64,000 nucleotides of DNA. Origin: Denitrobacterium detoxificans (GTDB taxonomy: Bacteria > Actinomycetota > Coriobacteriia > Coriobacteriales > Eggerthellaceae). Below the pieces are notes generated by a model, which did no database searches, was not told where the DNA came from, and saw only the letters and a list, made by a program, of their open reading frames with translations. Below, one piece after another: positions 11,116 through 57,167 of the stretch. Position 1 is the first letter of the stretch. The number at the start of each line of letters is the position of its first letter. The translations under genes were made by a program, and so were the position numbers. The stretch spans positions 16,061 to 80,060 of the forward strand of contig NZ_SUUH01000005.1 of the NCBI RefSeq assembly GCF_015062615.1, in the 5' to 3' direction.

Positions 11116-12945
11116 ATGGGTATCAGTCGTAAGCTAGTCTCCGTTTTGCTCGCATGCGTGTTGTCGGTTGCCTGGGTGCCGGCAATGGCGTTTGGCGTGG
11201 CGGATGAATATGAGGTCGCCAATGCCCCCGATCAAAGTGCCGTGCAGCCTCAGGAGCCTTCCGCTCAGCCGGAGGGACAGAACGAGCTCGGGCCCCAATC
11301 AAATGAAGCAGGAGATGGTAGCGAGCTTGCGCCCGCGTCCACGGGGTCTCTTGAGACGCAATCTGTCGTCAATGATATAGCTACCTTCACTTATTCGTAT
11401 ACGGGCGAATTCGTTGACATGCGGGTTGGCGATGGTGGCGAAAATATGACCGATCTGCCTCAGGGCTCGTTCGAAGGCTATCAAACTACGTACTATTCCG
11501 ATCAGGGAAAAGTCGTTTTTCATTTCTCTGTGCTGTTCATCGAGAAAATGACGAGCCTGACCATCAATGGCGTTGATTACAGTAGCTACATTCCCGATAC
11601 GAAGCAGGAAAAGCTCGACGCGTTTACGTATCAGCATACGGAGTTCGACGTTACCGTTTCGAGATCTAATACGTACGAGATTGCTACGTCAACCGTTCGC
11701 GATGATGACCCTGCAGTAGGCAATTTCCTCTGGTCGTACATGGATGTCGATGCTGGTACCGATGATTACATCGACCGTGGAACGCTGGAATTCGTGAGCG
11801 TTGAATATGATGGCGATACCTATACCGAAGCGGACTTGAAAGAGGGCTCGGCATTCGATTGGGTGGCCGATGAGAACGAGGGTGGAGCGGTATTCCCCGC
11901 GGGCTCTCTGCTCACTGTGAGGCTTGTGCCCAATCACGGCATGCAGCTCATTTCCTTTGGTGTGAACGGCGGCACGTTCGACACGGGCGAAAATGCGTCG
12001 GAGTACTCGTTCGAGGTTGCCAAGGGCAATTTCCACCTAGCGGCCCATTTTGACGAGGTCGATGATGCGGTAGTGTCTGATGATGATGCTATTTCGGGCG
12101 GGTCGATTGTGCTGTCCGATAAAGACGTCGATTCTGGTTCGGCTATCTTGTCCGTTGATAGCGCCAAGGTGAGCGACGATGAGCTTAATGCGCTGCAGAC
12201 GGCTGCAACGGGGGCTGGGGAGTATACGGTGCAAAGTGTCGTTGACCTTTCTTTGAACCAGGTCATCTACAAGGGAGTGAACGATGCGTCGACTGCCTGG
12301 ACGGCCTCTCTTGGATCTGATGAGCCCCTTGAGGAGAACGCCGTTGTTTCCCTGAAGCTGGCTGACGGCGATCAATACGGTTCGGTCGTGGTGGTTCATC
12401 AGGAGCATGACGGCACCTGCGTGGCAGTGCCGACGCAGTATGATTCCGCGACGCAAACGGCTACGTTCGAGACGGATGGTTTTTCGAATTACGCCATTGC
12501 TACGACGGAGGCCGCGGTAGAGTCTGCGGCGGTGTATCGCCTGTACAATCCGAATTCTGGTGAGCACTTCTTTACGATGAGCGAGTCGGAATACGCAAAC
12601 GTGAAAGCGGCGGGCTGGAACGATGAGGGCGTTGCATGGCAGGCTCCGCTTGAGGGTGCTGAAGTGTATCGCTTGTACAACCCGAACGGGGGAGACCATC
12701 ACTTCACGATGAGCGTCGAAGAGCGCGATATGCTGAAGAAGCTTGGCTGGAACGACGAGGGTGTTGCCTTCTGCAGCGCCGATGAGAGTGGCGTTCCCGT
12801 TCATCGCCTCTACAATCCCAATGCTCTTGCGGGGAACCACATGTTTACGGCAAGCCAGGACGAGAGCGATTTCGTTAAGGCGGCAGGCTGGAACTACGAA
12901 GGCATTGGCTGGTATGCCGTCGATGTTGAGGGCGAGCCTGTATAG
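11116..12945 (+). CDS. secreted wall-associated protein with three C-terminal YRLYNPN..GW..EG (DUF5648-like) repeats
   Basis: Signal peptide MGISRKLVSVLLACVLSVAWVPAMAFG; three about 43-aa repeats at the C-terminus (about 12525-12945). Confidence 0.85.
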   Translation: MGISRKLVSVLLACVLSVAWVPAMAFGVADEYEVANAPDQSAVQPQEPSAQPEGQNELGPQSNEAGDGSELAPASTGSLETQSVVNDIATFTYSYTGEFVDMRVGDGGENMTDLPQGSFEGYQTTYYSDQGKVVFHFSVLFIEKMTSLTINGVDYSSYIPDTKQEKLDAFTYQHTEFDVTVSRSNTYEIATSTVRDDDPAVGNFLWSYMDVDAGTDDYIDRGTLEFVSVEYDGDTYTEADLKEGSAFDWVADENEGGAVFPAGSLLTVRLVPNHGMQLISFGVNGGTFDTGENASEYSFEVAKGNFHLAAHFDEVDDAVVSDDDAISGGSIVLSDKDVDSGSAILSVDSAKVSDDELNALQTAATGAGEYTVQSVVDLSLNQVIYKGVNDASTAWTASLGSDEPLEENAVVSLKLADGDQYGSVVVVHQEHDGTCVAVPTQYDSATQTATFETDGFSNYAIATTEAAVESAAVYRLYNPNSGEHFFTMSESEYANVKAAGWNDEGVAWQAPLEGAEVYRLYNPNGGDHHFTMSVEERDMLKKLGWNDEGVAFCSADESGVPVHRLYNPNALAGNHMFTASQDESDFVKAAGWNYEGIGWYAVDVEGEPV

Positions 12946-12966
12946 ATCTCGCTTGTGAATCGTTGC

Positions 12967-13203
12967 GGGCGCGGGGCGGGGTTGCCCTTCGGGGCACCCG
13001 CTCCGCTGCTCGCGTGGGCAAGGCCCCAGGCGGGCCTTGCCCTACGCTCGTGCGCTCGCTGGTTCATGCTTTCACTTGGCGCTGCCCGGACTTTCCTTGG
13101 CGTTTCGGAAACTGCGTTTCCGCCCCGCCTTCGGAAGGTCCGTATGCAACGCTTTTCTTATTGGCTTTCACAGTGCCCCTATGGGCAACCCCGCCCCGCG
13201 CTC
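12967..13203 (+). repeat. structured mosaic repeat, copy A (long type)
   Basis: 19-bp perfect closing stem GCGCGGGGCGGGGTTGCCC/GGGCAACCCCGCCCCGCGC around the conserved core blocks shared with copies C, D, G, H and B2. Confidence 0.9.
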
Positions 13204-13715
13204 CACGTAGTTCCGATCGGGTCAATTCTACCCACGCACCCCTACCCCTCGACAGCCTCCCATCCAAGTAGGACTTCTATAAATCGGGACGGGTTGTTGT
13301 TGCGCCGCTTATCGTGAAGATTATTATCTCGTTGCCTGCCTCAACTTCTCTGATGATGCGTAGTTTGACGAAGTCGCTTGCCTGTAATTCCGAAACTGTT
13401 GTTTGGTGTTTCATTACCTGTTAAGCACTATTCTGAATGCCTGATGGGGTTGTTTCCCGGGTTGGTTATTTACTCGGGAAGGGGTGAACAAGGAACGCAG
13501 GCGAAGCCGAACGTTCCGTAGTTCACCAGGGATGGAGCAAGCAGTGCCCGTGAACGGGGGACGGAGGCTTGTTCACGCGGAATCGGATGATTCCCGACCG
13601 GACGCGCCACCCGAAGAGCCTACCAGCGCTCTGCCATGCGAAGCGAGTGGAGCGCGATTAGGGCTGCCGCAGGTTGAGCGGCCAAGGATAGCGCCCAATC
13701 GGTCGGAGCCGGTAG

Positions 13716-13785
13716 CCCATAGGGGCACTGTGAGAGCAAGCTGGAAACACGCTACGTTTGGGATGCGGCGTGGAGGCGCAGCATC
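13716..13785 (-). repeat. structured mosaic repeat, truncated copy B1
   Basis: GGGGCACTGTGAGAGCAAGCTGGAAACACGCTACGTTTGGGATG... matches the 3' third of the element (compare copy D), then breaks off. Confidence 0.6.
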
Positions 13786-13905
13786 ATGCATAATTGTAGG
13801 CAACGGTGTTTATGCCCTCGGTTCTGGCCTCGACTTAAAGAAGAGCCTACCAGCGCTCCGGCAGGTATCAGGGTAGGGGACAACGGGACCTGCTTCTGGA
13901 CTGGC

Positions 13906-14101
13906 GATTGCTGCCCTGCCGGTGATGCTCGCAAGGTCACTGTGAAAACAAAAAAAGAAGTTGCTTGGCTTAGCCAAGCAACCCGATAAATGCATGAACC
14001 AGCGAGCGCACGAGCGGAGGTTTCGGCCCGTGCGGGGCCGAAACCACGCGAGCAGCGGAGCGGGTGACCTGAAGAGTATCACCGGCAGGGCAGCCGCGAT
14101 C
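13906..14101 (-). repeat. structured mosaic repeat, copy B2 (short type)
   Basis: Core blocks present in reverse orientation. Closing stem CTGCCCTGCCGGTGAT/ATCACCGGCAGGGCAG. Central module replaced by GTTGCTTGGC-TTA-GCCAAGCAAC hairpin plus A/T tract. Confidence 0.85.
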
Positions 14102-14102
14102 G

Positions 14103-14165
14103 GATAAAAAAGCAGGCCCCTTTCGGGACCTGCTCAAAATTCGTGGCGGAGAGCTGGGGATTCCG
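14103..14165 (-). pseudogene. duplicated tRNA-Ser 3' end (24 nt) plus duplicated terminator
   Basis: TTCGTGGCGGAGAGCTGGGGATTC is identical to 14335-14358. The adjacent hairpin CAGGCCCC..GGGACCTG parallels the tRNA terminator at 14300-14335 with a compensatory base-pair change. Confidence 0.75.
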
Positions 14166-14338
14166 GCGTTCGCTTCGCGAACCCCGAACCCTCCCTCGCA
14201 GGCTCGGTCGGGCGAATTCCTAAAAGCCGTCCACTGGACGGCTTTCTTAACGGAATTCCACCTCATCGGTTCGAATCCCCAGTAACGGATCCCGAATAAT
14301 AAAAAAACAGGTCCCATTCGGAACCTGCTAGGATTTCG

Positions 14339-14429
14339 TGGCGGAGAGCTGGGGATTCGAACCCCAGATACCCTTTTGGGGCATACTCGCTTAGCAGGCG
14401 AGCACCTTCGGCCTCTCGGTCAGCTCTCC
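14339..14429 (-). tRNA. tRNA-Ser (anticodon GCU)
   Basis: Hand-folded: acceptor GGAGAGC/GCTCTCC, anticodon loop CTGCTAA, long variable arm, T-loop GGTTCGAATCC, encoded CCA. Confidence 0.92.
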
Positions 14430-24966: not shown

Positions 24967-24977
24967 TTCGGTCCCGG

Positions 24978-25206
24978 GGCCGACCGGCATATGCCCTTCG
25001 GGGCACCCGCTCCGCTGCTCGCGTGGGCAAGGCCCCGCACGGGCCTTGCCCTACGCTCGTGCGCTCGCTGGTTCATGTTTTTACTTGCGCTGCCCGGGCC
25101 TTCCTTGGCGTTTCGGAAACTGCGTTTCCGCTCCGCCTTCGGAAGGCCCATTTGCAGCGCATTTGTTTGCTTTCACAGTGCCCCTGCGGGCATATCCCGG
25201 TCGGCC
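24978..25206 (+). repeat. structured mosaic repeat, copy C (long type)
   Basis: Closing stem GGCCGACCGGCATATGCCC/GGGCATATCCCGGTCGGCC (1 mismatch) around the conserved core; starts 11 nt after the EamA stop. Confidence 0.9.
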
Positions 25207-25581
25207 TAGCGTTCCGGGGTGCTTGTAGCGGATGTAAGCCTCTTGCGGGCGCCTCATGCTTGCTACGAGGTGCGAGGGCGTCATCGCCGTCCCGCAACGA
25301 TGAGTGCGGCCCTTTGTAAATCTTTATTTGGCTTGCAACCCGTTGGGCTCGCATGTCTTCGTTGTGGTCAATCGGGTTTAAAGGTTTAAACCTTCTCAGC
25401 TTCGGCAGCGCGGGCTCCGTGCGGGGTCGTGGCCCTTTCGAGGGGTTGGTTTGCTAACGAGTGTGTACCGTCTCGTGTGGGCATACGCGTTCCAGCAAGA
25501 CTCTTCGAGTTGCGACTGGCGTTTCGTGTGATGTTGAGGGGATAGCCAATCGTGGCGGGCCCACCCGAATCCGCGCTAGCG

Positions 25582-25822
25582 CCCGGGCGGCGCCCCTTCC
25601 CGAGGGCACTGTGAAAGCCAACCAGAAACGCGCTACGTTCGGGATGGGGCCGTAGAGGGCGGGAAGCGCAGCTTCACGCGTATCTACGCCCCATCCCGAA
25701 CAGCGCGAAGTGAAAGCATGAACCAGCGAGCGCACGAGCGTAGGCTTCGGCCCGTGTGGGGCCGAAGCCACGCGAGCAGCGGAGCGGGTGCCTCGGGGAG
25801 GGACGCCGCCTGTCCGCCCGGG
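25582..25822 (-). repeat. structured mosaic repeat, copy D (long type, degenerate closing stem)
   Basis: Core blocks in reverse orientation. Central stem replaced by TTCGGGATGGGGC/GCCCCATCCCGAA. Confidence 0.85.
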
Positions 25823-25835
25823 AGCGCATAGATAT

Positions 25836-25865
25836 GAAAAAGGGCCAGCCCCGAAGGACTGACCC
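25836..25865 (-). terminator. intrinsic terminator of pknB operon
   Basis: On minus strand: GGGTCAGTCC-TTCG-GGGCTGGCCC (two G.U pairs) followed by TTTTT. Confidence 0.85.
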
Positions 25866-33669: not shown

Positions 33670-36141
33670 TTACGCGCCGTACCAGCCTATGCCCTCGTAG
33701 TTCCACCCGAGTTCGACGAGGTTGTTGGCTTCTGCCGCGCTCGTCGTGTAGTGGTGCGATCCGGTTTTGGCATTAGGGTTGTACAGGCGGTATAGGGGCG
33801 TCGTCTTATTTTCGTCGGAATACCAGCCTATGCCCTCGTAATTCCAGCCAAGGCTTACGAGCCAGTCCCGCTCCGATGCGCTCGCGGTGTAGTGGTGGTC
33901 TCCTCCGTTGGGGTTGTACAGGCGATAGACGGCGTTTCCGCTTTGGGGCGCTTGCCAGCCTATTCCTTCGTCCGTCCACCCCAGTTTCACGAGATGTGCC
34001 TGCTCTTCTGCGCTGGCAGTGTAGAAATGTTCGCCGGAATTGGGGTTGTACAGGCGATACATGGCAACGGTGCTCGTTGCGGAGCTCTGGTCGGAGTTCG
34101 TTTCCTCCGTGGTGCCGCCGGAGTTGCTTTCCCCGTCTGTCGCGTCTTGGCCCTGGGAGTCATTTCCGGTGCTTCCGGAGGACGTACCTTGGCTGGTGAC
34201 GCTCGCGAGCGTGTAGTTCGTGCCGCTCGCTAGCTCGGGTGATGAGTAGATGAGGTAGCTTGCGGAGCCCTTTGCCGTGTAGGTGCTCAATGGCGTGGAC
34301 GAATCATTCGCCGCATATATGCCAACGGTGTCGCCGGATGAAATACTCACGCTTCCCGAGCTCGTTCGTGGCGTGCTGCCCGAGGGCGTTTGCGCCGTTG
34401 CCGTTGCGTTGAGCGTGCTCGATTGGGTGCTGAGGGAAGAATCATCATCCGACGTGAAGGGCCTGAAGCCTCCGCCTGGAGTTCCCCCAGGGGTGCCGCC
34501 GGGAGTTCCGCCGCCGTTTCCGCCCCCGAACATCACGTAGGCTTGCGACCCGGACGTGGGCGTTACGGACATGCTGCTTCCGAATGCGGCAAGGGTACCG
34601 CCCGTTTGCGTCCAGCCATCGCTGTTCAGGTCGCCGTAATCGACTGCGCCGTTGTCGTTCGAACCTGCGTATACCTCGACGGTTCCTCCGCTCATGATGA
34701 TGCTTCCGTTGGAATCGAGCCCGTCGCCGCCAGACGCCCGGTTTCCCTCGTCATCGGTTCCCGTAGCCGTGGCGTTAACGAGGATGCTTCCTCCCTCTAT
34801 GGTGAGCAGGAAGGGGTATGCGTTGGAATTGCTTCCCAGCGTGGAATTGGCGGCGTTAATGCCATCGTCGCTGGTATATAGGTCGATGGCGCCCGAATAG
34901 ACGGACACGGTGGCCCCTTCGAGCCCTTCAAGCGCATAGCCTATTGTGATGGCGGGCTCTTCGGTTGCCTGGTTGGTTGACCCTATGACGAGGTCAACGT
35001 CGGCGTGAATGCCGTCATCATCGGAGGATGCGTTTATGGAGCCGCCCGAAATGGTTACCATGCCGCTTCCGTCGGACGCGATGGTGGTGGAGGTTCCGCT
35101 GGTGATTTCGGTGGCATTCGCGTGTATGGCGTCGTCTGCGCAATTGAGCGTGATGTCGCCATCGTTTATGGTAATCGCATGGTCGCTCTTCAGGCCCTTG
35201 GCCGATTGCGTGTCCGACGCGTCATCGGGGTCCGCGGGCAAGTCGTTTCCAACTTTGTTCGATCCACCGAACGTGGTTATGTCGATGTTTCCTCCTGTGA
35301 CGACGAGGTCTCCGGTGGCCTGAATGCCATCCCCGGTTGTGTCGCCTGTGCCCGTTTCTATGGAAATAGTGCCGCCGCTAATGGTAACGGTACCGTATGA
35401 TTCGCCGTCTACGCTGTTCAGGCCATTGTAGGTGTCGGCCTGAATGCCGTCTCCCGCGCTCTGGATATCTATGTCGCCGCCATTGATGGTTATGGTGCCG
35501 CGGCTGCTTGTATCCGTTTCGTCGGGCGCCGCCTTTATACCGTCGTTGCCCGCTTCTATGCTTATGGTGCCGCCGTTGATGACGACGCTGCCGTCGCTCG
35601 CAATGCCGTTGTTTGCGGCTTCGATGGCGAGGGAGAAATTGTTCTCCGCGTTGGTGTCGCCGCCAATCGTGACCGTTGCGTCCGTGGCTCCCTTGATGGC
35701 GTTTTTACCCGCACTTGTTGCGGTAAGCGTATTGTCGTTTTCGCTTTGTCCCACGATGGTGAGGGACGAGCCCGATTTCGCCTTGATTGCCGCACTGCCG
35801 GTAACGGTGTCGTTATTGGCGATAGTACTCGCTCCGTCTGTCACGATGGTAACCGATGCGTTTTTGCCAATCGTAATGGTGTCGGTTCCATCGGCGCTGG
35901 TAGCCAGCGAGAGATCGTCTAAGATGAGCGTGACCTCAAGCCCTTTGGCAATGTTGACGGTGCCTTCGCTGCACGAACCCGATAGGGTGTACGTTCCGTC
36001 CTCCGTGATTTCCAAAGAGGAGTTTTCTTCGGAAAACGTAAAGGCCGTGCTGCTCGAGTCGAGTGCAAGAGCGTAGGAAGGTGCAATGCCCAGCGCTAAT
36101 GCGCATGCGATTCCGAATGTGATGGGTGTCTTTGCACGCAT
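33670..36141 (-). CDS. secreted beta-helix (Cthe_2159-like carbohydrate-binding family) protein with three C-terminal DUF5648-like wall repeats
   Basis: Signal peptide MRAKTPITFGIACALALGIAPSYALA. Repeated ..GG.I.I.aGdDGI.A.. units, GGTPGGTPGGTPGG linker, three YRLYNPN..GW..EGIGW repeats. Confidence 0.85.
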   Translation of the reverse strand: MRAKTPITFGIACALALGIAPSYALALDSSSTAFTFSEENSSLEITEDGTYTLSGSCSEGTVNIAKGLEVTLILDDLSLATSADGTDTITIGKNASVTIVTDGASTIANNDTVTGSAAIKAKSGSSLTIVGQSENDNTLTATSAGKNAIKGATDATVTIGGDTNAENNFSLAIEAANNGIASDGSVVINGGTISIEAGNDGIKAAPDETDTSSRGTITINGGDIDIQSAGDGIQADTYNGLNSVDGESYGTVTISGGTISIETGTGDTTGDGIQATGDLVVTGGNIDITTFGGSNKVGNDLPADPDDASDTQSAKGLKSDHAITINDGDITLNCADDAIHANATEITSGTSTTIASDGSGMVTISGGSINASSDDDGIHADVDLVIGSTNQATEEPAITIGYALEGLEGATVSVYSGAIDLYTSDDGINAANSTLGSNSNAYPFLLTIEGGSILVNATATGTDDEGNRASGGDGLDSNGSIIMSGGTVEVYAGSNDNGAVDYGDLNSDGWTQTGGTLAAFGSSMSVTPTSGSQAYVMFGGGNGGGTPGGTPGGTPGGGFRPFTSDDDSSLSTQSSTLNATATAQTPSGSTPRTSSGSVSISSGDTVGIYAANDSSTPLSTYTAKGSASYLIYSSPELASGTNYTLASVTSQGTSSGSTGNDSQGQDATDGESNSGGTTEETNSDQSSATSTVAMYRLYNPNSGEHFYTASAEEQAHLVKLGWTDEGIGWQAPQSGNAVYRLYNPNGGDHHYTASASERDWLVSLGWNYEGIGWYSDENKTTPLYRLYNPNAKTGSHHYTTSAAEANNLVELGWNYEGIGWYGA

Positions 36142-38387: not shown

Positions 38388-38460
38388 AGGTGACAGGGGG
38401 ACGTACCTACTGTCACCTGGTGATTTCCAAGGTGACAGTAGGTACGTCCCCCTGTCACCT
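38388..38460. repeat. nested perfect palindrome with four GGTGACAG/CTGTCACC half-sites at 21-bp phasing
   Basis: 31-bp perfect arms 38388-38418 / 38430-38460. Half-sites start at 38389, 38410, 38431 and 38452. Confidence 0.9.
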
Positions 38461-39474: not shown

Positions 39475-39676
39475 GGTAATTCCTTCCAGTTTGGTATGAT
39501 TTCGGCACATTCTACGACTAGGGTACGTTGCAATCAATGCCAAATTGGCTTCGGTTGCGGTTATTTACGTAAATGACTTTATTCGGCTGTAGCGTGTGCG
39601 GGCCCGTCCGCGCTTCTCCTTCGGAGCGGGTGTCCCGAAGGGGGATGCGCGGGCGGGTCTCCGGGGCCTTCCGGCG

Positions 39677-44455: not shown

Positions 44456-44494
44456 AAGAACCGCGCCTAGCCCACGGAAGCGCGGTTCTTTTTG
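44456..44494 (+). terminator. intrinsic terminator after the XRE-membrane gene
   Basis: GAACCGCGC..GCGCGGTTC followed by TTTTT. Confidence 0.85.
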
Positions 44495-44648
44495 GATATG
44501 CGAAGATAGCTTGCATCGATGCGCTCTGGCGAATAGCAAGAGAGAAAGGAAAAGCCAAGGCGCTTGTGGGCTTATGCGAAGCCTTTCGCATTGTTGGGAT
44601 ATTGTAGCCCGTTTCGCACTTCCGATTGTACGAAATTGGGGACAGTCA

Positions 44649-47600
44649 TTATTTCCTGCTCGCGGTTTTCTCGTCCTTGTACTTGGCATCTATCTCTTCA
44701 AGTGAGAGGGGTTTTGCAAAGTAGTAGCCTTGTAGGATGTCGCAGCCTGCTTCGGCTAGACGCGTTGCCTGCTCCTCGGTTTCCACGCCTTCCGCAAGCG
44801 TGCGCATTCCCAGCTTTTGCACCATGAGCACGATGCCCGCAATTACATCCCACGTGCGCGGGTTTTTATCGTCGCGCAGGAATTCCATGTCTAGCTTTAC
44901 GACATCGAAGTTGAAGTTCTTCAGCGAGTTCAGCGATGAGTATCCGCTTCCAAAGTCGTCCATCCACACTTCGAAACCCGCTGCCTTCAGTTCGTCGACG
45001 GCTTCCTGCAGCATTCCCGCATCGCTTATTGCCGCCGATTCGGTGAACTCGATATGTAGCAATGAACGCTCTACTCCCGCTTCATCCGCTCGTTTCGATA
45101 TTTCGTGCGTAACGTCAAATTTTGCAAGGTCATCCATCGAAATGTTTACGGAAATGGGAACGACGGGGAGACCCTGGCTCTTTTTTCGTGCGAGGTCGGC
45201 TGTTACGCAGTCGATCATATGGAGGTCTACCTTGTGCAGAACCCCTGCCTCTTCGAGTACGGGAATGAATTGAGCGGGAGAGAGAAAGCCAACGTTGGGG
45301 TCGATCCAGCGAGCGAGTGCTTCTGCGCCGCAGATGCGATGCGTATGGGCATCTACTTCGGCCTGATAATATGGTCTAATCCAGCGATGCTCTATGGCTT
45401 CGTCTACCGTTTCCAATACGTATGAGCGCATTTTCACTTCAGCGCCGAGTTCATCATCGTACCAGAGTAATTCCGATTCCCACGACTTCGAATGGCTATC
45501 GCAGGCGGTTCTCGCTCGATTGATTCCCGTTGTTGCGATGTCGTCGTCGGGCTGGCATGGAAATACGCCTGCTTTGAGGGGGAGGCGCAATGATTCGTGA
45601 TACGCGGAGCAAGCTTCGAAGACATTGAACGTTTTGGGTTCGACGTCTTCGAGTGGGGCGATTACGTAGAAATGTTCGTCTGACGCATGTGCGCAGTTTT
45701 CCCGTCCGAAAGCGGAGACGAGCTCCTTGCCAATTGCTCGCAGTATCTTGTTTCCGTTTTCATGGCCGTAATTCTCGATGTGGTTTTTGTAGCCCATCAA
45801 ACGGAATGCTATAAGCGCCGGCGTACCGCCGTTTTCCCGGATGCGCTCGGCGACTTCCGGCGCCGTTTCCAAAAAGCGCATCATGGAGGGGAGCCCCGTT
45901 ATGGGGTTGGTGTAGATGACAAGCCAGGTCTTGCCCAACTTATCGTCGCTTTCCCGGGCCCATCGTGACACGTGCGCGAAGTTCGTGATGAGCAGAATTG
46001 ATGCAAGGGTAAAGAGCCCCGCTGCCATGAGCATGGTGATGAGCCTGCGCTTTTGAAGATCCTGGATTTGCTCATGCAGCATGGTCTTGTTCGAGGCAAC
46101 GGTTTCGTTCGTTTCCGTATTGACGTCATACGACGAGGAAATGGCGGAATCGGCGGTTCGCTCGGATCCCATGAGCGTTTGATCCATCCAGGTAAACCCC
46201 ACGAACATGACGAGCGACAAAAGGCCAACCCATACGATGGTGGAGCGCCCGAAGCGCTTTTTCTTGTCGTGTGCGAGCAGGATGCGGAACGCGGCAAACC
46301 CCAATAGCCCCCAGATGGCAAAGAGGAAGTACGATTCGGGTTCCATGACGTCAGAGGAAATGAGGCCCGAAATGAGCAGGTAGCAGCCAAAAGCAATCAT
46401 GATCGCCGCACCCAACACTCCTGTGGTGCGCTCGGTGCGCTCGCCGCGCGCACGCGCTATTTTAAAGGTGGAGGCGGAGACGATTGCGTAGATGATGATG
46501 GCACCAATAGTGGTTACATCCACGATCCACCCAATGGCCGTTCGGCCAATGAAGGGCACCACGAACGATACAGCTCCTATTGCCAGCAATGCGTTCTGCG
46601 GGCTGCCCTGTTTGTTTACGTAGGCTAAACGCCCTGGCAATATGTCATCTTTTGCCAGGGCGTATGCCATGCGGCTGAGCGCGATGACGTTGCCGATGAG
46701 GCTTGTGAGAACGAGTGCGAGCAGGGCGAGCATCAGCAAGGCGACTCCGCCATCGCCTAGGAGGGCGTAGGCGGCATAAAACGCGGGCAGTGCTTCGATG
46801 CCGCTTAGATTGCCTAGGTCGGAAATGTATTCCAGCCAGTTTGCGTATTGCGGAGGATGCACCATCGTGGACATCAGCATTACGGCGATGTAGAGAATGG
46901 TGGTGAACACAATGGACGCAAGGAGGATCTTGAAGAGCTGCGTATGCGGAAAATTGAACTCGGGCGCCGAGTGAGATACGTTTTCGAAGCCTATAAATGC
47001 CCAGGGGGAAATGGATGCAATTAGGGCGATTTGCGATAGTTCGGAAGCGTTGGGAACAAAGCCGGGGTCGATGGAGAACGCCGGTGATCCCAGGCGTGAC
47101 GCACAGGCAATGAATGCCGCTAGGATGCTGATGGTGAACAGCGCCGACATGGCAACCATCGCTCGCATCGTCCACTTTCGCGAACGCATGCAAGCAAGCA
47201 CGGTAAGGATGATTGCCAGAATCGAGAGTGCGGCTTCGCCCAGGTAGATGTCGTAATCGAAGAGAGTGTAGTGGAAGCCGATTTTCAGTATGTCGCCTGC
47301 GAAGTATTGCGTGAACAACGGCAGGGAGGTCACGTTCGCCCAGAATACGGCTATGTACGTTAGGAAGAGGAACCAGGCCGTAAGGAAGCCGTGGTCGTGG
47401 CCAAATACTTCTTTCGCGTAGGTGTAGGCGCCTCCTGCGTCGGGAAAGCAGTTCACCATGTAATGGTAGTTCCGCGCGATGACGATCATGATGAGCGCTC
47501 CGAGCAGAAGTCCCAGGATGCTTCCCCATGCGCCGGCTTGGCGTAGGTAGCTGCTGGAAGTCACGATGAACGAGCCCCAGCCAATGCTGCAGCCTATTGA

Positions 47601-47669
47601 GAACGCCCAGACCCCAAGTTTGGATAGGTAGGGCGATAAAGAGGTTTCTGTCGATTCGTCCCTTCCCAT
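44649..47669 (-). CDS. APC-family amino-acid-permease-like domain fused to degenerate GGDEF and intact EAL (c-di-GMP phosphodiesterase) domains
   Basis: N-terminal about 470 aa form a 12-TM APC-like region, followed by extra TM segments. GGDEF position reads ASDEH. EAL motifs present: EALARW, VNIS, EFTES, DDFGSGYSS, KLD, AEGVETEEQ, QGYYF. Start uncertain (ATG 47669, 47708 or 47744). Confidence 0.85.
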   Translation of the reverse strand: MGRDESTETSLSPYLSKLGVWAFSIGCSIGWGSFIVTSSSYLRQAGAWGSILGLLLGALIMIVIARNYHYMVNCFPDAGGAYTYAKEVFGHDHGFLTAWFLFLTYIAVFWANVTSLPLFTQYFAGDILKIGFHYTLFDYDIYLGEAALSILAIILTVLACMRSRKWTMRAMVAMSALFTISILAAFIACASRLGSPAFSIDPGFVPNASELSQIALIASISPWAFIGFENVSHSAPEFNFPHTQLFKILLASIVFTTILYIAVMLMSTMVHPPQYANWLEYISDLGNLSGIEALPAFYAAYALLGDGGVALLMLALLALVLTSLIGNVIALSRMAYALAKDDILPGRLAYVNKQGSPQNALLAIGAVSFVVPFIGRTAIGWIVDVTTIGAIIIYAIVSASTFKIARARGERTERTTGVLGAAIMIAFGCYLLISGLISSDVMEPESYFLFAIWGLLGFAAFRILLAHDKKKRFGRSTIVWVGLLSLVMFVGFTWMDQTLMGSERTADSAISSSYDVNTETNETVASNKTMLHEQIQDLQKRRLITMLMAAGLFTLASILLITNFAHVSRWARESDDKLGKTWLVIYTNPITGLPSMMRFLETAPEVAERIRENGGTPALIAFRLMGYKNHIENYGHENGNKILRAIGKELVSAFGRENCAHASDEHFYVIAPLEDVEPKTFNVFEACSAYHESLRLPLKAGVFPCQPDDDIATTGINRARTACDSHSKSWESELLWYDDELGAEVKMRSYVLETVDEAIEHRWIRPYYQAEVDAHTHRICGAEALARWIDPNVGFLSPAQFIPVLEEAGVLHKVDLHMIDCVTADLARKKSQGLPVVPISVNISMDDLAKFDVTHEISKRADEAGVERSLLHIEFTESAAISDAGMLQEAVDELKAAGFEVWMDDFGSGYSSLNSLKNFNFDVVKLDMEFLRDDKNPRTWDVIAGIVLMVQKLGMRTLAEGVETEEQATRLAEAGCDILQGYYFAKPLSLEEIDAKYKDEKTASRK

Positions 47670-52374: not shown

Positions 52375-52379
52375 TGTCC

Positions 52380-52589
52380 GCGCTGCGGGGTGGGGGATGC
52401 CCTTGGGGGCACCCGCTCCGCTGCTCGCGTGGTTTCGGCCCCGCACGGGCCGAAACCTACGCTCGTGCGCTCGCTGCTTCATGCATATACTTGGATTTTT
52501 CGCCCAAGGCGAAAAATCGGGCCCAGCTGAGCTGGGCCTTTTTGTTTGCTTTCAGAGTGCCCCCAAGGGCATCCCCCACCCCGCAGCGC
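52380..52589 (+). repeat. structured mosaic repeat, copy G (short type)
   Basis: 23-bp perfect closing stem GCGCTGCGGGGTGGGGGATGCCC/GGGCATCCCCCACCCCGCAGCGC. The central module is two hairpins, the second being GGGCCCAGC-TGA-GCTGGGCC followed by TTTTT. Confidence 0.9.
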
Positions 52590-52639
52590 TACCCAATCCG
52601 CTTGTGCCCCCAGAAGCGCGCGCTTTGGGGCGCGCTTTC

Positions 52640-52844
52640 CCGATCGGGAATCGCCTCACGGGCGCGGGCGCCCTGCTGCGCGCCCGTCCGACGACCCTTG
52701 CAGTTATGCAATAGGAACCCAGCCGCAGCAGGGCGCAAAGCGAAGCGAGCGCCCGTACGGCGACCTCACGACCCGGCGAGTGGAACCCAACCGCAGCAGG
52801 GCGCGCAGCGAAGCGCCCGCGCCCGTGAGGCGATTCCCGATCGG
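52640..52844. repeat. second type of palindromic element: 31-bp perfect inverted arms enclosing two about 66-nt tandem units
   Basis: Arms CCGATCGGGAATCGCCTCACGGGCGCGGGCG (52640-52670) and its exact complement (52814-52844). Tandem units start with GGAACCCARCCGCAGCAGGGCGC at 52714 and 52782. Confidence 0.85.
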
Positions 52845-52905
52845 TCCCAGGTCCCCAAGAGGTCCCGCACGGATGGGACGGGCTGTGGCGCAACCACCGG
52901 TTGTA

Positions 52906-53140
52906 GGGCCGGCCCGCGTCCCCCTGCGGGGGCACTCTGAAAGCAAACCAGAAACGCGCTATGCCCGGGGCTTCCGGAGGCGGAGCGGAAACGCAGTTTC
53001 CGCAAACGCCTCGGAAGCCCCGGGCAGCGCGAAGTAAAAGCATGAAGCAGCGCAGCGCACGAGCGTAGGCCTGGGCCCGTGAGGGGCCCAGGCCACGCGA
53101 GCAGCGGAGCGGTGCCCCGCAGGGGGACGCGGGCCGGCCC
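52906..53140 (-). repeat. structured mosaic repeat, copy H (long type)
   Basis: Closing stem GGGCCGGCCCGCGTCCCCC/GGGGGACGCGGGCCGGCCC. Lies 24 nt downstream of the stop of the 1282-aa gene. Confidence 0.9.
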
Positions 53141-53164
53141 CGGGACAGAACGAGGGGGTAAGGG

Positions 53165-56100
53165 CTACAGCCCGTACCAGCCGATGCCCTCGTACTTCCA
53201 GCCGAGTTTGCGCAGCCCGTCGCGTTCGCTCGCGCTCGTCGTGTAGTGGTGCGAGCCGGACTTGGCGTTCGGGTTGTACAGGCGGTAGAGCGGCGTCGTC
53301 TTGTTGTCGTCGGAGTACCAGCCGATGCCCTCGTACTTCCAGCCAAGGCCCCTCAGCCAGTCGCGCTCCTCGGCGCTCATGGTGTAGTGGTGGTCACCAC
53401 CGTTGGGGTTGTACAGGCGGTACACGGGCGTGTTGCTCGTTGCGGGCGCCGTCCAGCCGATGCCCTCGTATTTCCACCCGAGCTTGCGCAGGCCGTCGCG
53501 CTCCTCGGCGCTGGCCGTGTAGAAGTGCTCGCCGCCGTTCGGGTTGTACAGGCGATACATGCTTTGCTTACTCGTGCCGCTGGAATCTACGATTTGGAAC
53601 GCAGCGACGCGCGAGCCCTTGTAATAGTGGCCGGTTGCAATGACGTATACCGTTGCGGTGCCAGGGTTGATATTGTTGACGTACTGCAGGGTGTAGTCGA
53701 CGTCCTTGCGCAGGGTTACGCCCTTCACGATGACCGAGGGGTTGGGCGTTACGGCCTTGCCCGTGTATGCCTGCGGGGAAACGACGTTGATGATCACGTC
53801 AGTTTCGGTGGTTAGATCCACAACGTTCGCGATGAAGACGGGGAAGTGGCCATTCACGTTGTTCGAGTCGAAATGGAAGGGCGTGCCCAGCGTGGTGTCG
53901 GCGAAGTCCACGCTCTGCATCACTTCGGACGTTTGTTTGGTGATGCCGTCCCCTGCCAGCCTTCCAGCCGCTTGCGTGCAGGAAAGCTCCAGGTAGTGGG
54001 TATTTTCGAAGGTTGCGTTCCCATTGGCAACGTCGCCGCAGATGGCGCCTGCCGCAGTTCCCGTAAGGTCTACTCCGTTGTACGTTACGAGCCCCGTGTT
54101 GTATGCGCGCTTTACGGTAAGCTGGCTCGTCGCCCAGCCCACCAGGCCGCCGGCATACGGTCCGTCGGCGGCAAGACCCGATACGGTAACGTATCCTGTG
54201 TTGTATGCACTTTCCACGCGTACGTTGTACCCGCAGCCTTCCAGGCCGCCTGCCATGCCGCGTGACGTGATGTTTCCACTGTTGTACGACGTCAGAAACT
54301 CGCTGCTGCTTGCGCAGGATTCGCCATTCGCACTGCCTGCAAAGCCCAGCAATCCGCCTACGCGCGTAGCGTTGGGCGCTTGGATGTTGCCGGTGTTGGC
54401 GCAGTCTTGGAACACGACGTGCGCGTTGGGGAGCGCGCGCCCCAACATGCCTCCCACGCCTTCGGTTTCCAGTCCGTCGGTGACGGAGCCCGATGTGAAG
54501 CAAGAATTGAACGTGAGCGAGCCTTCTTTCATGACGCCCACGAGTCCTCCCAGATCGGCCGCAGACGCGGAAACGGCTACGCTGCTACTGACGTTGTAGA
54601 ACGTCGTCTCTCCGCCGTTCACCGTCTCTGCAAGGGCAGGTCGCGACATGGTGCCGGCAAGCACGAGGTCTTTCACTTCCGTTTGCTCGTGTGACCCGGA
54701 AATGGCATTGAACAGGGGCTGCGTGGTGCCTGCATGCATGGTGATGGTGTGTCCGCCGCCATCGAAGCTTCCCGCAAAGGGCGACGCAATGCCAATGGAG
54801 GGCACAAGGGGCGAAGTGTCGGTGTTTACCAGGTCGAGGTCGGCGGTCAGCTTGTAATGCGCCGAGCCATAGGCGGGGAAGTCGTTTTCGATGCAGTACT
54901 GCATGTAGGCAAGTGCGCCTACGGAGTCGATGACGTAGGGGTCGTTTTCGGTGCCCGTGCTTGCGTTGGCGAACGAATCGGGGCCTGCGGCAACGGCAAA
55001 TTGAACTTGCATGCTGCCGCTGTAGTTGCCTCCGGGAACGGCTACCGCGTCAACGCTGCCAAGCGGTGCGGCGGTCTTCGTATTTCCGCTGTTCCAGTCC
55101 AGGGTGTAGTCGACGTTTTCCTGCAGCTGCTTGCCCGCGGCATTGGTAATGGTGATGGTGGGGCGCACCAGGTTGTTGCCGCCGAAGTTCCAGGTGCTGG
55201 TAGCGGTGTACGTGCAGTTGCTTGTGCCCAGGTTGGCTGGGTCGATGGTGAAAGCGTGCGGTCCGTTTTGCGTTCCCGCATAGGCGCCCGCACCCGTTAC
55301 GGTGAACGTTGCGGGGCTCGTGCTCGTGGTGACATTGGTGTTGTTGCTGCCCGTAACCGTGTAGTCGGAATCGGGATTGAGCTCGGTGCCGTTCAGCACG
55401 ACGCGGATGTCGGAAGGCAGAATTGCTTCGCCTGTATACGTTACCGTTTCGCTGTACGAGATAGTGGCGTCTTCCAGGTTGACCGAGGGCTCCTCCAGGC
55501 CCAGCTGCCAATAGAGCACGGGGTATCCGTAGTTGGGCTTTGAGCTTTCGTGGCCGTCGATGAAGTATGCCCCCAGTTTGCTTGCGCCCTGTCGCTTCAA
55601 ATCGTCGAACGAGAGGGGCAGGGCGTTTGATTGGCTAACGGTGGGTGCCACGAGTCCGCCGGTATCGGTTTCTCGCGTGCCTGCCCAGCCTGCGGCTGCA
55701 TCGCCGCGGAAGTAGCAGTTCCCAATGCGAATTTCGCTGCCTTCTTCGCCCACGCCTGCCAGGCCCACCATACCGCCTACGGAAGTGGATCCGTCGGCTT
55801 GGCTTTGCTTGCCCATGAGGCTTGCGCTATAGGTGTTCGTGATGGCCAGGCGGTATAGTCCGCCTTGCGCGCGTCCTACGATGCCTCCCAGGTACGCCGT
55901 TCCGCCTACGGGGGTTCCAATGACGGTGTATTCGCGATCGTTTTCCGCGGCGCTGAAGCAGTTGGAGATGGTCAGCTTGCAGCCGCTATTCGCGCCCACG
56001 AGGCCGCCGCCTGCGGCAGAGGCGGAAACGCTACCCGTGTTGCCACATGCGCTTATGGTTACCGTGGGTGGCGTGCTGGCGGATTCAGCTTCGCAGAGGC

Positions 56101-57013: not shown

Positions 57014-57167
57014 AACGACCCCCATCGCCGCGCGTGAAATGTAATCTCAATTCTACCATTTTCTCAGTTCAGGTGCACTAAACAGCTGGTTTTCGTCTTC
57101 GCGACAGCTTGTTATTCAGGCTGTTTTAAGGCGTGGTTTGTAGAGTCGGGTACAGTCAACGAGAGGA

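What the first reader, a model, noticed from the sequence alone, without database searches (positions are those of the whole stretch)
24978..25822. Repeat copies sit as convergent pairs exactly at 3' ends of converging transcription units, always sense to the upstream unit
Three convergent junctions each carry one forward and one reverse copy:
- the 609-aa wall-protein gene (+) versus tRNA-Ser (-): copies A and B2
- eamA (+) versus pknB (-): copies C and D
- the purine permease (+) versus the 1282-aa wall-protein gene (-): copies G and H

Each full copy follows its upstream unit in the same relative orientation. Gaps after the stop codon are 21 nt (A), 11 nt (C), 5 nt (G) and 24 nt (H). D follows pknB's own terminator, and B2 follows the duplicated tRNA-Ser terminator by 1 nt.

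If orientation were random, six out of six in sense would be (1/2)^6 = 1/64. Other convergent junctions in the window (19152/19246, 42566/42643, 44428/44649) use ordinary short terminators and have no copy. The element is therefore not obligatory but is strongly position- and orientation-biased. That fits either a 3'-UTR/terminator-associated function or targeting of terminator hairpins.
Basis: seen in the sequence. Interest (0 to 1): 0.65.

Follow-up and report, generated by a model that had tools for sequence, protein, structure and literature searches.

The report
Terminator-carrying structured repeat at gene ends
A gut Eggerthellaceae bacterium carries dozens of copies of an undescribed, tightly folded 190-245 base repeat that sits just after genes, points the same way as them and contains a terminator-like hairpin, which makes it a GC-rich cousin of known bacterial gene-end repeats such as SPRITE and REP.

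Summary
The window has six full copies of a 190-245 nt repeat in three convergent junctions, each sense to the nearest upstream unit. It also has a 5'-truncated copy and a deletion remnant, both likewise sense.

In a sister genome (MAG RUI283, 93-96% identical), about 12 further copies show the same bias. The combined count is 14 of 16 independent copies sense-downstream, with two exceptions.

Each copy folds into a long closing stem (P1) enclosing two hairpins (P2, P3).
- The joining sequences are nearly invariant.
- The stems differ between copies but stay Watson-Crick: 97.7% of cells are paired and 36 of 56 pairs show double changes.
- P1 is specific to each locus.
- P2 and P3 are swapped between orthologous copies.
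- P3 is followed by a T-rich tract (about 6.4 T in 10 nt, against 2.2 expected), so it looks like a one-way intrinsic terminator facing incoming transcription.

Metatranscriptome contigs run from the genes into the elements, and depth usually falls inside them.

There is no Rfam match, no conserved terminal repeats and no target duplication. The family was found only in this species group.

Best reading: a new variant of the gene-end interspersed repeats (SPRITE, REP/BIME, ERIC), acting as a terminator and 3'-end module. Whether it is host-adaptive or a selfish, terminator-seeking element is unresolved.

The parts
12966..13201 (+). Copy A, full element. It starts 21 nt after the stop codon of the 609-aa DUF5648 wall-protein gene.
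   Evidence: 254 bits.
13701..13840 (-). Copy B1, 5'-truncated. It keeps P3, the T-rich linker, block 3 and the 3' arm of P1. It lies downstream of B2 on the same strand.
   Evidence: E = 0.02.
13907..14098 (-). Copy B2, the short-P3 variant. It sits directly behind the duplicated tRNA-Ser 3' end and its terminator. Its own P3 plus T7 (13958-13984) is called terminator-like.
14104..14163 (-). Duplicate of the tRNA-Ser 3' end plus its terminator (87% identical to 14299-14358). This is the unit that B2 follows.
   Evidence: (repeat D8).
24976..25210 (+). Copy C, 11 nt after the eamA stop codon. Its sub-parts are:
- P1 5' arm, 24976-25006
- block 1, 25007-25026
- P2 tip, 25027-25050
- block 2, 25051-25086
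- P3, 25087-25160
- T-rich linker plus block 3, 25161-25183
- P1 3' arm, 25177-25210
   Evidence: 250 bits.
25580..25824 (-). Copy D, about 14 nt behind the T-run of pknB's own terminator. Block 1 is at 25768-25787, the block 2 core at 25717-25740 and block 3 at 25604-25620.
25842..25865 (-). The canonical intrinsic terminator of pknB (hairpin plus TTTTT), lying between the gene and copy D.
   Evidence: An RNA contig of run X14 ends at 25841.
52378..52590 (+). Copy G, 5 nt after the permease stop codon. It is a short, two-hairpin P3 variant. The hairpin at 52519-52539 plus TTTTTGTTTG is called terminator-like.
52906..53140 (-). Copy H, 24 nt after the stop codon of the 1286-aa DUF5648 gene. 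Its orthologue in MAG RUI283 (L002) has an identical P1 but a changed P2 tip and a swapped P3.
39600..39665 (-). Deletion remnant. Both P1 arms survive, joined by a loop that still contains CACCCGCTCCG from block 1. It lies behind the terminator of the 64-aa DUF6724 gene. The sister genome has a full copy here (L009).
   Evidence: E = 0.13.

Best explanation
**What it is.** This is a family of small, non-coding, interspersed structured repeats specific to one Eggerthellaceae species group, with roughly 35-40 copies per genome. It belongs to the same broad kind as SPRITE, REP/BIME and ERIC. Each copy carries a one-way intrinsic-terminator module and persists almost only just past the end of a transcription unit, pointing with it.

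**Proposed mechanism.**
1. RNA polymerase leaving the upstream gene transcribes the P1 5' arm, the P2 hairpin, a conserved single-stranded joiner and then the GC-rich P3 hairpin with its U-rich tail.
2. A context-dependent fraction of transcripts ends there, or is trimmed back to P2/P3. These hairpins then protect the mRNA 3' end.
3. Read-through transcripts complete P1, a 25-33 bp near-perfect duplex. In convergent pairs they also pair with the antisense partner copy. This creates long double-stranded RNA that would be cut by RNase III.
4. In a convergent junction, one copy per gene insulates the two units from each other.

**Shown.** The anatomy, the covariation, the terminator polarity, the position and orientation bias in two genomes, co-transcription, the depth drop and the module exchange between orthologues.

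**Inferred.** Actual termination at P3, stabilisation of the mRNA, RNase III cleavage, and the way copies spread.
For: **Copies and fold.** There are six exact block-1 matches in three convergent (-> <-) pairs. MFE folds range from -104 to -166 kcal/mol with the same architecture in every copy.

**Covariation.** On 17 copies, 97.7% of cells are paired, 36 of 56 pairs show double changes, and 0 of 500 shuffles reach the observed values. Slid-partner controls pair only 32-46%.

**Locus-specific P1.** Duplexes between a copy's own P1 arms average -64.6 kcal/mol, against -35.8 for arms taken from different copies.

**Terminator module.**
- P3 is followed by about 6.4 T in 10 nt on the sense strand, read. 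The window is 22% T.
- The scan calls it a terminator in B2 and G.
- This genome does use hairpin+T terminators.

**Census.** Of 16 independent copies, 14 are sense-downstream. These include single copies in co-directional junctions (L014, L002) and a second convergent pair in a convergent junction (L011).

**RNA.**
- Contigs run from genes into the elements.
- Depth falls 255 to 86 and 56 to 21 at A, 19 to 0 at C, and 32.5 to 0 at H in run X11.
- The centres of the C/D and G/H pairs are nearly silent in X11.

**Orthologues.** Between H and L002, P1 has no substitutions while the flanks are about 6% diverged.

**Precedents.**
- SPRITE is a terminator-like repeat. It is the pneumococcal repeat most enriched between convergent genes and lies close to 3' ends (PMC3049150).
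- REP325 acts as both terminator and stabiliser (bioRxiv 10.64898/2026.03.23.713779).
Against: - The RNA evidence comes from assembled contigs only. These break at repeats and give flat mean depths, so no 3' end is mapped.
- Where depth does fall (C in X10, H in X11), it falls before P3 rather than after the U-tract. That fits processing or trimming as well as termination.
- Read-through is large in some samples: about 50% at H and about 40% at A and D in X10. Single contigs cross A in X14 and X25.
- Five copies lie behind a canonical terminator, where a second terminator is redundant. D has no RNA contig coverage in X11, X12 or X14; in X14 the pknB contig ends at pknB's own terminator.
- Three of 17 tails are T-poor.
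- Truncated and deleted copies exist, and the family is absent from relatives at about 80% nucleotide identity (L040, L036). A strictly required host function is therefore unlikely.
- The 3' arm of P1 lies downstream of the proposed terminator, so P1 cannot form in terminated RNA.
- Stem mismatches show no excess of G:U over A:C on the sense strand (12 against 15). The pairing constraint is therefore not demonstrably at the RNA level.
Confidence: 0.5

Rival explanations
1. It is a purely selfish, non-autonomous mobile element. Its insertion machinery recognises the DNA or RNA just past a transcription end (a stop-codon-proximal region or terminator hairpin) in an orientation-specific way, as class C group II introns do. 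The terminator-like P3 and the position bias would then be by-products of targeting and of purifying selection against harmful insertions, not a host function.
For: - Five copies lie within about 6-60 nt behind a canonical terminator T-run: D, B2, L009, L003a and L019b.
- The phylogenetic range is narrow. The element is absent at the same junction in relatives and from the JGI and viral scans.
- Decayed copies exist (B1, the 39600 remnant, L005), and a second repeat family is nested in the P2 loop of L008 and L009.
- Copy number is about 35-40 per genome.
- The L003 pair is convergent (-> <-) even though its right-hand neighbour is not a convergent gene.
Against: - There are no conserved terminal inverted repeats beyond GGCAC/GTGCC, and no target-site duplication.
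- No transposase or reverse transcriptase is seen next to any copy.
- No clean filled-versus-empty site pair was found.
- Group II intron models give no hit, even at E <= 5.
- P1 is unchanged between orthologues while the flanks diverged about 6%. This suggests constraint in place, which an inert insertion would not have.
Confidence: 0.25
2. It is a family of structured non-coding RNAs released from 3' UTRs. P1 would be a processing stalk cut by RNase III, as in rRNA precursors. It would free a roughly 170-nt RNA whose invariant unpaired joiners bind a common protein or target.
For: - The unpaired joiners are nearly invariant, while all helices covary freely.
- No promoter is conserved, so the RNA would depend on the upstream gene for transcription. 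This would explain the sense orientation.
- In X10 the 3' end of the wall-protein gene plus the 5' half of H is 5-6 times deeper than the gene body (62.9 against 11.2).
Against: - The internal terminator-like P3 precedes the 3' arm of P1.
- Copies behind strong terminators would rarely be made.
- P2 and P3 can be swapped, shortened or carry 150-nt insertions.
- There is no G:U excess and no Rfam relative.
- The taxonomic range is very narrow.
Confidence: 0.1
3. It is a DNA-level element. The fold would matter in single-stranded or cruciform DNA, for example as a recombination site, a protein-binding site or a replication-related site. Stem complementarity would be kept by arm-to-arm templated correction rather than by selection on RNA.
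For: - The stems are almost purely Watson-Crick, with many GC<->CG flips and few wobble intermediates. About 12 cells changed on one side only, against 175 changed on both sides.
- G:T and A:C mismatches are symmetric.
- Rearrangement breakpoints between the two genomes fall inside elements.
Against: - The T-rich tail and the orientation rule are strand-specific and follow the direction of transcription, not of replication. Both orientations occur at a single locus.
- No recombinase is nearby.
- attC-type core sites are not visible at the ends (inspected by eye only).
Confidence: 0.1
4. The convergent pair, not the single copy, is the unit. It would be a composite or foldback element with roughly 200-bp structured inverted ends and a cargo in the middle, so the sense-to-both-genes pattern would be automatic.
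For: - There are five convergent (-> <-) pairs, no divergent (<- ->) pairs and no adjacent tandem pair among about 23 copies.
- The L003 pair is not in a convergent gene junction.
- The pair centres (315-700 nt) are transcribed in some samples.
Against: - The centres of the five pairs share no similarity.
- Spacing varies from 315 to 703 nt.
- Single copies in the sense orientation are common (L001, L002, L009, L013, L014).
- The orthologue of H is single in the sister genome.
Confidence: 0.05

Closest known systems
[quoted passage not shown] 2011, PMC3049150)
   Same: - It is a small non-coding interspersed repeat with about 30 copies per genome.
- It has a hairpin followed by a U-rich tract.
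- Among pneumococcal repeats it is the one most enriched between convergently transcribed genes, and it lies close to 3' ends.
- It is restricted to one species group.
- No parent insertion sequence and no target duplication are known.
   Different: - SPRITE is AT-rich, with one simple 18-bp duplex and AAAA/TTTT ends.
- The present element is 61-73% GC and 190-245 nt long.
- It forms a three-way structure closed by a locus-specific 25-33 bp stem.
- It has exchangeable P2 and P3 modules.
- The two share no sequence relationship.
REP/BIME elements of enterobacteria (REP325 as dual terminator/stabiliser, bioRxiv 10.64898/2026.03.23.713779)
   Same: - They are extragenic and lie in 3' UTRs, where they are co-transcribed.
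- They are built as mosaics of modules.
- Their termination and mRNA protection are partial and depend on context.
- They are frequent between convergent genes.
   Different: - REPs are 20-40 nt imperfect palindromes with a conserved sequence, and they are mobilised by RAYT transposases.
- Here the conserved parts are the unpaired joiners, the stems are free to vary, and no RAYT is known.
ERIC/IRU, YPAL and Correia (NEMIS) elements (reviewed in PMC10969869)
   Same: - They are 100-170 nt repeats that fold end to end into a long hairpin when co-transcribed.
- Their effects on mRNA depend on orientation, through RNase E (ERIC) or RNase III cleavage of the paired ends (Correia).
   Different: - Those elements have conserved terminal inverted repeats and TA or similar target duplications.
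- Here the paired ends differ at every locus, and no duplication is seen.
Class C group II introns (insertion just after intrinsic terminators, in sense; recalled from Robart, Seo and Zimmerly 2007, not re-read here)
   Same: Their position is immediately behind terminator hairpins, in the orientation of the upstream gene.
   Different: - The present element has no intron domains, no reverse transcriptase and no Rfam hit.
- It is far too small to be such an intron.

Membership tests
Intrinsic (Rho-independent) terminator | A GC-rich hairpin immediately followed by a U/T-rich tract on the transcribed strand. | tested here: met
   - P3 is followed by a mean of about 6.4 T in 10 nt across 17 copies; 14 of 17 have at least 5 T in the first 9 nt.
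- The scan calls it a terminator in B2 and G.
- Three tails are T-poor.
Intrinsic (Rho-independent) terminator | RNA 3' ends map to the U-tract. | tested here: inconclusive
   - Only assembled metatranscriptome contigs were available.
- Depth drops inside the elements, but in two cases the drop comes before P3.
- Read-through is 0-50%, depending on the sample.
MITE (miniature inverted-repeat transposable element) | Terminal inverted repeats that are conserved between copies and match a parent insertion sequence. | tested here: not met
   - The paired ends (P1) differ at every locus. Own-arm duplexes average -64.6 kcal/mol, against -35.8 for arms of different copies.
- Only GGCAC/GTGCC is shared.
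- No parent insertion sequence is known.
MITE (miniature inverted-repeat transposable element) | A target-site duplication flanking each copy. | tested here: not met
   No direct repeat was seen at the P1 boundaries. No local source of the arm sequences was found within 400 nt.
MITE (miniature inverted-repeat transposable element) | Small, non-coding, many dispersed copies, and presence/absence differences between close genomes. | tested here: met
   - Copies are 190-245 nt, with about 35-40 per genome.
- The same site holds a full copy in one genome and a remnant in the other.
- The element is absent from the same junction in relatives.
REP/BIME | Imperfect palindromic units of 20-40 nt with a conserved sequence, associated with a RAYT gene. 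| tested here: not met
   The size and architecture differ. No P1-like solo palindromes exist in the window. The presence of a RAYT gene could not be tested without the whole genome.
SPRITE-type terminator-like interspersed repeat (a functional class, not a homology group) | An interspersed repeat that contains a terminator-like hairpin plus U-tract, is enriched between convergent genes and lies near 3' ends. | tested here: met
   - All three element-bearing junctions of the window are convergent (P about 0.0025).
- Of 16 independent copies, 14 are sense-downstream.
- The P3 tail is T-rich.
Described structured RNA family (Rfam 15) | A match to a curated covariance model. | tested here: not met
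   There were no hits at gathering thresholds over the window. Only chance-level hits appeared at E <= 5 over the two junctions searched.
Integron attC site | R''/R' core sites (GTTRRRY) at the ends, a position 3' of cassette genes, and an array next to an integrase. | tested here: not met
   - No core-site motif was seen at the ends (by eye).
- The flanking genes are housekeeping genes in mixed orientation.
- There is no cassette array.

The most novel reading that the evidence does not exclude
The element may be more than a passive gene-end repeat. Its invariant unpaired joiners, its freely varying but strictly Watson-Crick helices, its locus-specific closing stem and its fixed polarity just past transcription ends would fit one of two things. 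The first is a 3'-UTR ribonucleoprotein domain released by cleavage of P1. The second is a new kind of mobile element that copies itself to transcript ends through an RNA or single-strand intermediate, in which one P1 arm templates the other.
Probability: 0.12. Interest if true: 0.75.

Novelty: new variant of a known kind. Interest (0 to 1): 0.42.

Why it matters
Eggerthellaceae are medically relevant gut Actinomycetota, and their transcription signals are almost unstudied. A repeat that supplies or reinforces the 3' ends of dozens of genes, and that differs between close strains, would be a source of expression diversity. It would also be a cause of assembly breaks and rearrangements.

The family is a clean natural experiment in helix evolution. 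About 20 paralogues show near-total Watson-Crick covariation and module swapping. It could yield compact, orientation-specific terminator or insulator parts for high-GC gut bacteria. If the locus-specific closing stem reflects how copies are made, it would point to an undescribed mobilisation route.

Tried and rejected
- **Rfam.** A search of the whole window at gathering thresholds, and E-value searches of two junctions, found nothing.
- **Public collection scans with the 20-mer.**
  - Among GTDB species genomes it found only MAG RUI283; the other matches are chance.
  - All 16 JGI metagenome matches are chance.
  - Viral contigs gave none.
- **Pair as a composite element.** The pair centres share no similarity. 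The C/D centre has no convincing ORF and only a mild folding z-score of -2.5.
- **P1 as a split, pre-existing terminator or REP palindrome.**
  - No T-tract follows P1.
  - There are no solo P1-like hairpins.
  - There is no local source of the arms.
  - A relative without the element could not be aligned in the spacer.
- **Target-site duplication.** None was seen.
- **Peptide coding on the reverse strand.** Rejected, because P2 varies by compensated changes and by large insertions.
- **RNA-strand signature (G:U against A:C).** No asymmetry was found.
- **Excision or inversion variants in DNA runs.** The only joints seen are explained by cross-mapping of paralogues.
- **Widening the census through DUF5648 paralogues.** The protein search returned unrelated taxa and was useless for this purpose.
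- **UGA reassignment.** TGA is rare as a stop codon, but long genes contain no in-frame TGA, so the standard code applies.
Full report
**What is in the sequence**

The window is a 59% GC stretch of an uncultured Eggerthellaceae genome. It corresponds to JGI contig Ga0187895_1000383. It is present at about 98% of sampled words in faecal metagenome runs and, in diverged form, in bovine gut runs.

The 20-mer CCGCTCCGCTGCTCGCGTGG occurs exactly six times, three on each strand, against 0.01 expected. Two other conserved blocks co-occur with it. The six copies form three convergent (-> <-) pairs:
- A 12966-13201(+) and B2 13907-14098(-)
- C 24976-25210(+) and D 25580-25824(-)
- G 52378-52590(+) and H 52906-53140(-)

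There is also a 5'-truncated copy, B1 (13701-13840, -), and a deletion remnant at 39600-39665 (-).

- two DUF5648 wall-type proteins of 609 and 1286 aa
- EamA
- PknB with PASTA domains
- a xanthine/uracil permease
- tRNA-Ser

I reproduce the gaps to the stop codons (21, 11, 5 and 24 nt). D lies behind pknB's own hairpin+T5 terminator. B2 lies behind a duplicated tRNA-Ser 3' end with its terminator. The other convergent junctions have ordinary hairpin+T terminators and no copy.

**Is it more than chance?**

Roughly 52 intergenic junctions can be counted in the window, and 7-8 of them are convergent (plus the tRNAs). All three element-bearing junctions are convergent. That gives a probability of about 0.0025 (C(8,3)/C(52,3)).

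I therefore looked for an independent sample. A scan of GTDB species genomes found the 20-mer in one MAG, Eggerthellaceae RUI283. This MAG is 93-96% identical to the window in syntenic blocks.

nhmmer and a covariance model find 11 full copies there, plus two that are partial or cut by a contig end. With Pfam-checked neighbours, they fall into these groups:
- **Single copies in the sense orientation after a gene:** L001 (NifU-like), L013, L014 (a co-directional junction) and L005 (a partial copy).
- **Orthologues of window copies, not counted as independent:** L002 (orthologue of H) and L008 (orthologue of C).
- **Sense copies directly behind a canonical terminator:**
  - L009, after a DUF6724 gene
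  - L003a, after a tRNA gene
  - L019b, after rpmE
- **A convergent pair in a convergent junction:** L011a and L011b.
- **Two exceptions:**
  - L019a lies in a divergent junction, upstream of the likely rpmE promoter.
  - L003b lies 80 nt upstream of, and antisense to, a HAD hydrolase gene. It nevertheless forms a convergent pair with L003a.

Counting orthologues once, 14 of 16 copies are sense and immediately downstream of a unit (binomial P about 0.002).

**Anatomy**

Every copy folds the same way (MFE -104 to -190 kcal/mol):
- A closing stem, P1, of 25-33 nearly perfect base pairs.
- A hairpin, P2, with an invariant base and a variable tip.
- A conserved single-stranded joiner (UCGCUGGUUCAUGCUUUUACUU).
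- A hairpin, P3, of very variable length and type.
- A T-rich linker running into the conserved GCUUUCA(C/G)AGUGCC.
- The 3' arm of P1.

On a model-based alignment of 17 copies:
- 97.7% of cells form standard pairs. Shuffled partners give 76% and slid partners 32-46%.
- 36 of 56 pairs have changes on both sides, spread over 175 cells.
- No shuffle out of 500 reaches any of the observed measures.
- All 18 pairs of outer P1 covary.

The alignment was fitted to the model, which favours the structure. The size of the effect and the independent MFE folds make the fold secure all the same.

P1 is locus-specific. A copy's own arms give duplexes averaging -64.6 kcal/mol, against -35.8 for arms taken from different copies. 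Only the orthologous pair H/L002 cross-matches. Even so, P1 sequences of different loci are visibly related (for example H, L014 and L009; or A, L001 and G). P1 is therefore part of the element, not a captured target.

**How the copies evolve**

H and its orthologue L002 differ as follows:
- P1 arms: no substitutions, although the flanks are about 6% diverged and the downstream spacer about 13%.
- P2 tip: two fully compensated pair changes.
- Inner part of P3: wholesale replacement by another module type, one that also occurs in other copies.

C and its orthologue L008 share the P1 5' arm. However, L008 has a roughly 150-nt hairpin of a second repeat family nested in the P2 loop, and a different P3.

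So modules are exchanged between paralogues. This most simply reflects gene conversion anchored in the invariant blocks, and it would also homogenise those blocks. P1 lies at the edge next to unique DNA, so it stays locus-specific.

Stems are almost purely Watson-Crick, with many GC<->CG flips and few wobble intermediates. One-by-one mismatches show no excess of G:T (12) over A:C (15) on the sense strand. The pairing constraint therefore cannot be assigned to RNA of one strand. Duplex RNA, single-stranded DNA, or arm-to-arm correction all remain possible.

Further observations bear on age and mobility:
- Truncated and deleted copies exist (B1, L005, the 39600 remnant).
- Synteny between the two genomes breaks inside an element.
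- Relatives whose EamA is 89% and 69% identical lack the element in the same junction.
- DNA depth of the conserved block, relative to single-copy sequence, suggests about 35-40 copies per genome. This is a rough figure.

**The terminator module and the RNA evidence**

On the sense strand only, P3 is followed by a T-rich tract whose sequence varies while its composition is kept.
- The mean is about 6.4 T in the first 10 nt, read. The window is 22% T.
- 14 of 17 copies have at least 5 T in the first 9 nt.
- The simple terminator scan calls this feature in the two short-P3 copies, B2 and G. The long P3 variants fall outside the scan's loop rule.
- No A-tract lies upstream of P3, so the module works in one direction only.
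- In 14 of 16 copies it faces the transcription arriving from the nearest upstream unit.

Only assembled contigs of faecal metatranscriptomes were available. They break at repeats and carry flat mean depths. With that caveat, the evidence is as follows.
- Contigs run from eamA, pknB and both wall-protein genes into the 5' half of the elements.
- Depth then falls.

| Copy | Run | Depth upstream | Depth after |
|---|---|---|---|
| A | X11 | 255 | 86 |
| A | X10 | 56 | 21 |
| C | X10 | 19 | 0 |
| H | X11 | 32.5 | 0 |

- The centres of the C/D and G/H pairs are nearly silent in X11.
- The same elements are read through at about 40-50% in X10, and single contigs cross A in X14 and X25.
- Where the fall is sharp, it lies before P3 rather than after the U-tract. 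That would fit processing or exonucleolytic trimming back to P2 as well as termination.
- In X14 the pknB contig ends at 25841, exactly at pknB's own terminator, so D is hardly transcribed there.

**Best explanation and rivals**

I judge it most likely (about 0.5) that this is a species-group-specific family of interspersed structured repeats. It would be of the same kind as SPRITE, REP/BIME and ERIC, would carry a one-way terminator and 3'-end module, and would persist almost only in sense at the ends of transcription units.
- Incoming polymerase would meet P2 and then P3 with its U-tract.
- A context-dependent share of transcripts would end there or be trimmed to there.
- Read-through RNA would complete the long P1 duplex and, in pairs, would base-pair with the antisense partner. 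This would create RNase III substrates.
- In convergent junctions, one copy per gene would insulate the two units.

Termination, stabilisation and RNase III cutting are inferences.

The main rival (0.25) is a purely selfish element that targets transcription ends in an orientation-specific way.
- **For:** five copies behind canonical terminators, the narrow distribution, the decayed copies, the nesting, and the L003 pair.
- **Against:** no conserved terminal repeats, no target duplication, no partner enzyme seen, and an unchanged P1 between orthologues.

Lesser rivals are:
- a released 3'-UTR RNA with P1 as a processing stalk (0.1)
- a DNA-level site (0.1)
- the pair as a composite unit (0.05). 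This last is weakened by unrelated pair centres and by frequent single copies.

**Comparison with what is known**

No Rfam family matches. Four literature searches found no description of such a repeat in Eggerthellaceae.

- **SPRITE** of S. pneumoniae is the closest functional analogue. It is a terminator-like repeat of about 30 copies, the pneumococcal repeat most enriched between convergent genes and close to 3' ends, and it has no known parent insertion sequence or target duplication (PMC3049150).
- **REP elements** act as partial terminators and stabilisers in 3' UTRs, and they correlate with expression at convergent pairs (bioRxiv 10.64898/2026.03.23.713779).
- **ERIC and Correia elements** fold end to end in mRNA and are cut by RNase E or RNase III (PMC10969869).

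The present family differs in several ways:
- It is GC-rich and larger.
- It forms a three-way fold in which the unpaired joiners are the conserved part.
- Its closing stem is unique to each locus.
- Its hairpin modules are exchangeable.

It fails the MITE criteria of conserved terminal repeats and target duplication, and it fails the REP criteria of size and sequence. I therefore file it as a new variant of a known kind, not as a member of any named family.

**Verdict**

The phenomenon (terminator-like repeats collecting at convergent 3' ends) has clear precedent, so interest is moderate (0.42). The unusual evolutionary pattern of the stems, and the unresolved way in which copies arise, leave a small chance (about 0.12) of something more novel.

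Noticed in passing
window 13480-13600; L009 1385-1495; L008 (inside P2): A second repeat family forms long hairpins built on CCCGTGAAC(A)GGGGACGGAGG(C/T)TTGTTCACG. It is nested in the P2 loop of two RUI283 copies and is also present in the spacer between A and B2. This suggests that hairpin loops are insertion sites for it.
   Followed up: partly
window 14104-14163, 14299-14358, 13885-13900 and 14268-14282: The 3' end of tRNA-Ser and its terminator are duplicated (87% identical). A third partial copy of the terminator arm and a stray T-arm-like GGTTCGAATCCCC lie nearby. Together these look like att-site scars of an integrative element that has since been lost.
   Followed up: no
window 13200-13990: The spacer between A and B2 is covered at high depth in metatranscriptome contigs: 86 in X11 and 21 in X10, and it lies inside single contigs in X14 and X25. 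Coverage then stops dead at 14104. This is either a long read-through 3' UTR of the wall-protein gene or an unannotated transcript. There is no Rfam match.
   Followed up: partly
window 52591-52905: The centre of the G/H pair contains a 46-nt inverted repeat (52640-52685 and 52799-52844, 93% complementary) and direct repeats. It is 87% conserved in RUI283 (L002). In run X10 it is deeper (38-83) than both flanking genes, which may indicate a small RNA.
   Followed up: partly
window 38388-38460: A perfect 31-bp inverted repeat (AGGTGACAGGGGGACGTACCTACTGTCACCT and its complement, with an 11-nt loop) lies about 50 nt downstream of tRNA-Leu. This is far longer than the terminators seen elsewhere in the window.
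   Followed up: no
window 44493-47651, against L009 6383-7179: The 1031-aa amino-acid-permease/GGDEF/EAL fusion gene of the window is replaced by about 800 nt of different sequence in the 95%-identical sister genome. This is a strain-variable locus.
   Followed up: no
whole window: Stop-codon use among predicted genes is TAG 24, TAA 19 and TGA 4, which is unusual for a 59% GC genome. Long genes have no in-frame TGA, so the standard code still applies. A recent paper reports UGA-to-Trp reassignment in other Eggerthellaceae (PMC13462651).
   Followed up: partly
window 11116-12945, 33670-36141 and 53165-57025: Three paralogous surface proteins share a C-terminal DUF5648 domain, and their 3' coding segments are repeated (75-84% identical). 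Two of the three are followed by an element (A and H), and the 609-aa gene followed by A is among the most highly expressed genes in the metatranscriptomes.
   Followed up: partly
window 53035-53193 in run X10: The last 30 nt of the 1286-aa gene plus the 5' half of H are 5-6 times deeper (62.9) than the gene body (11.2). This suggests either a stable 3' fragment or an internal start. It remains unexplained.
   Followed up: no
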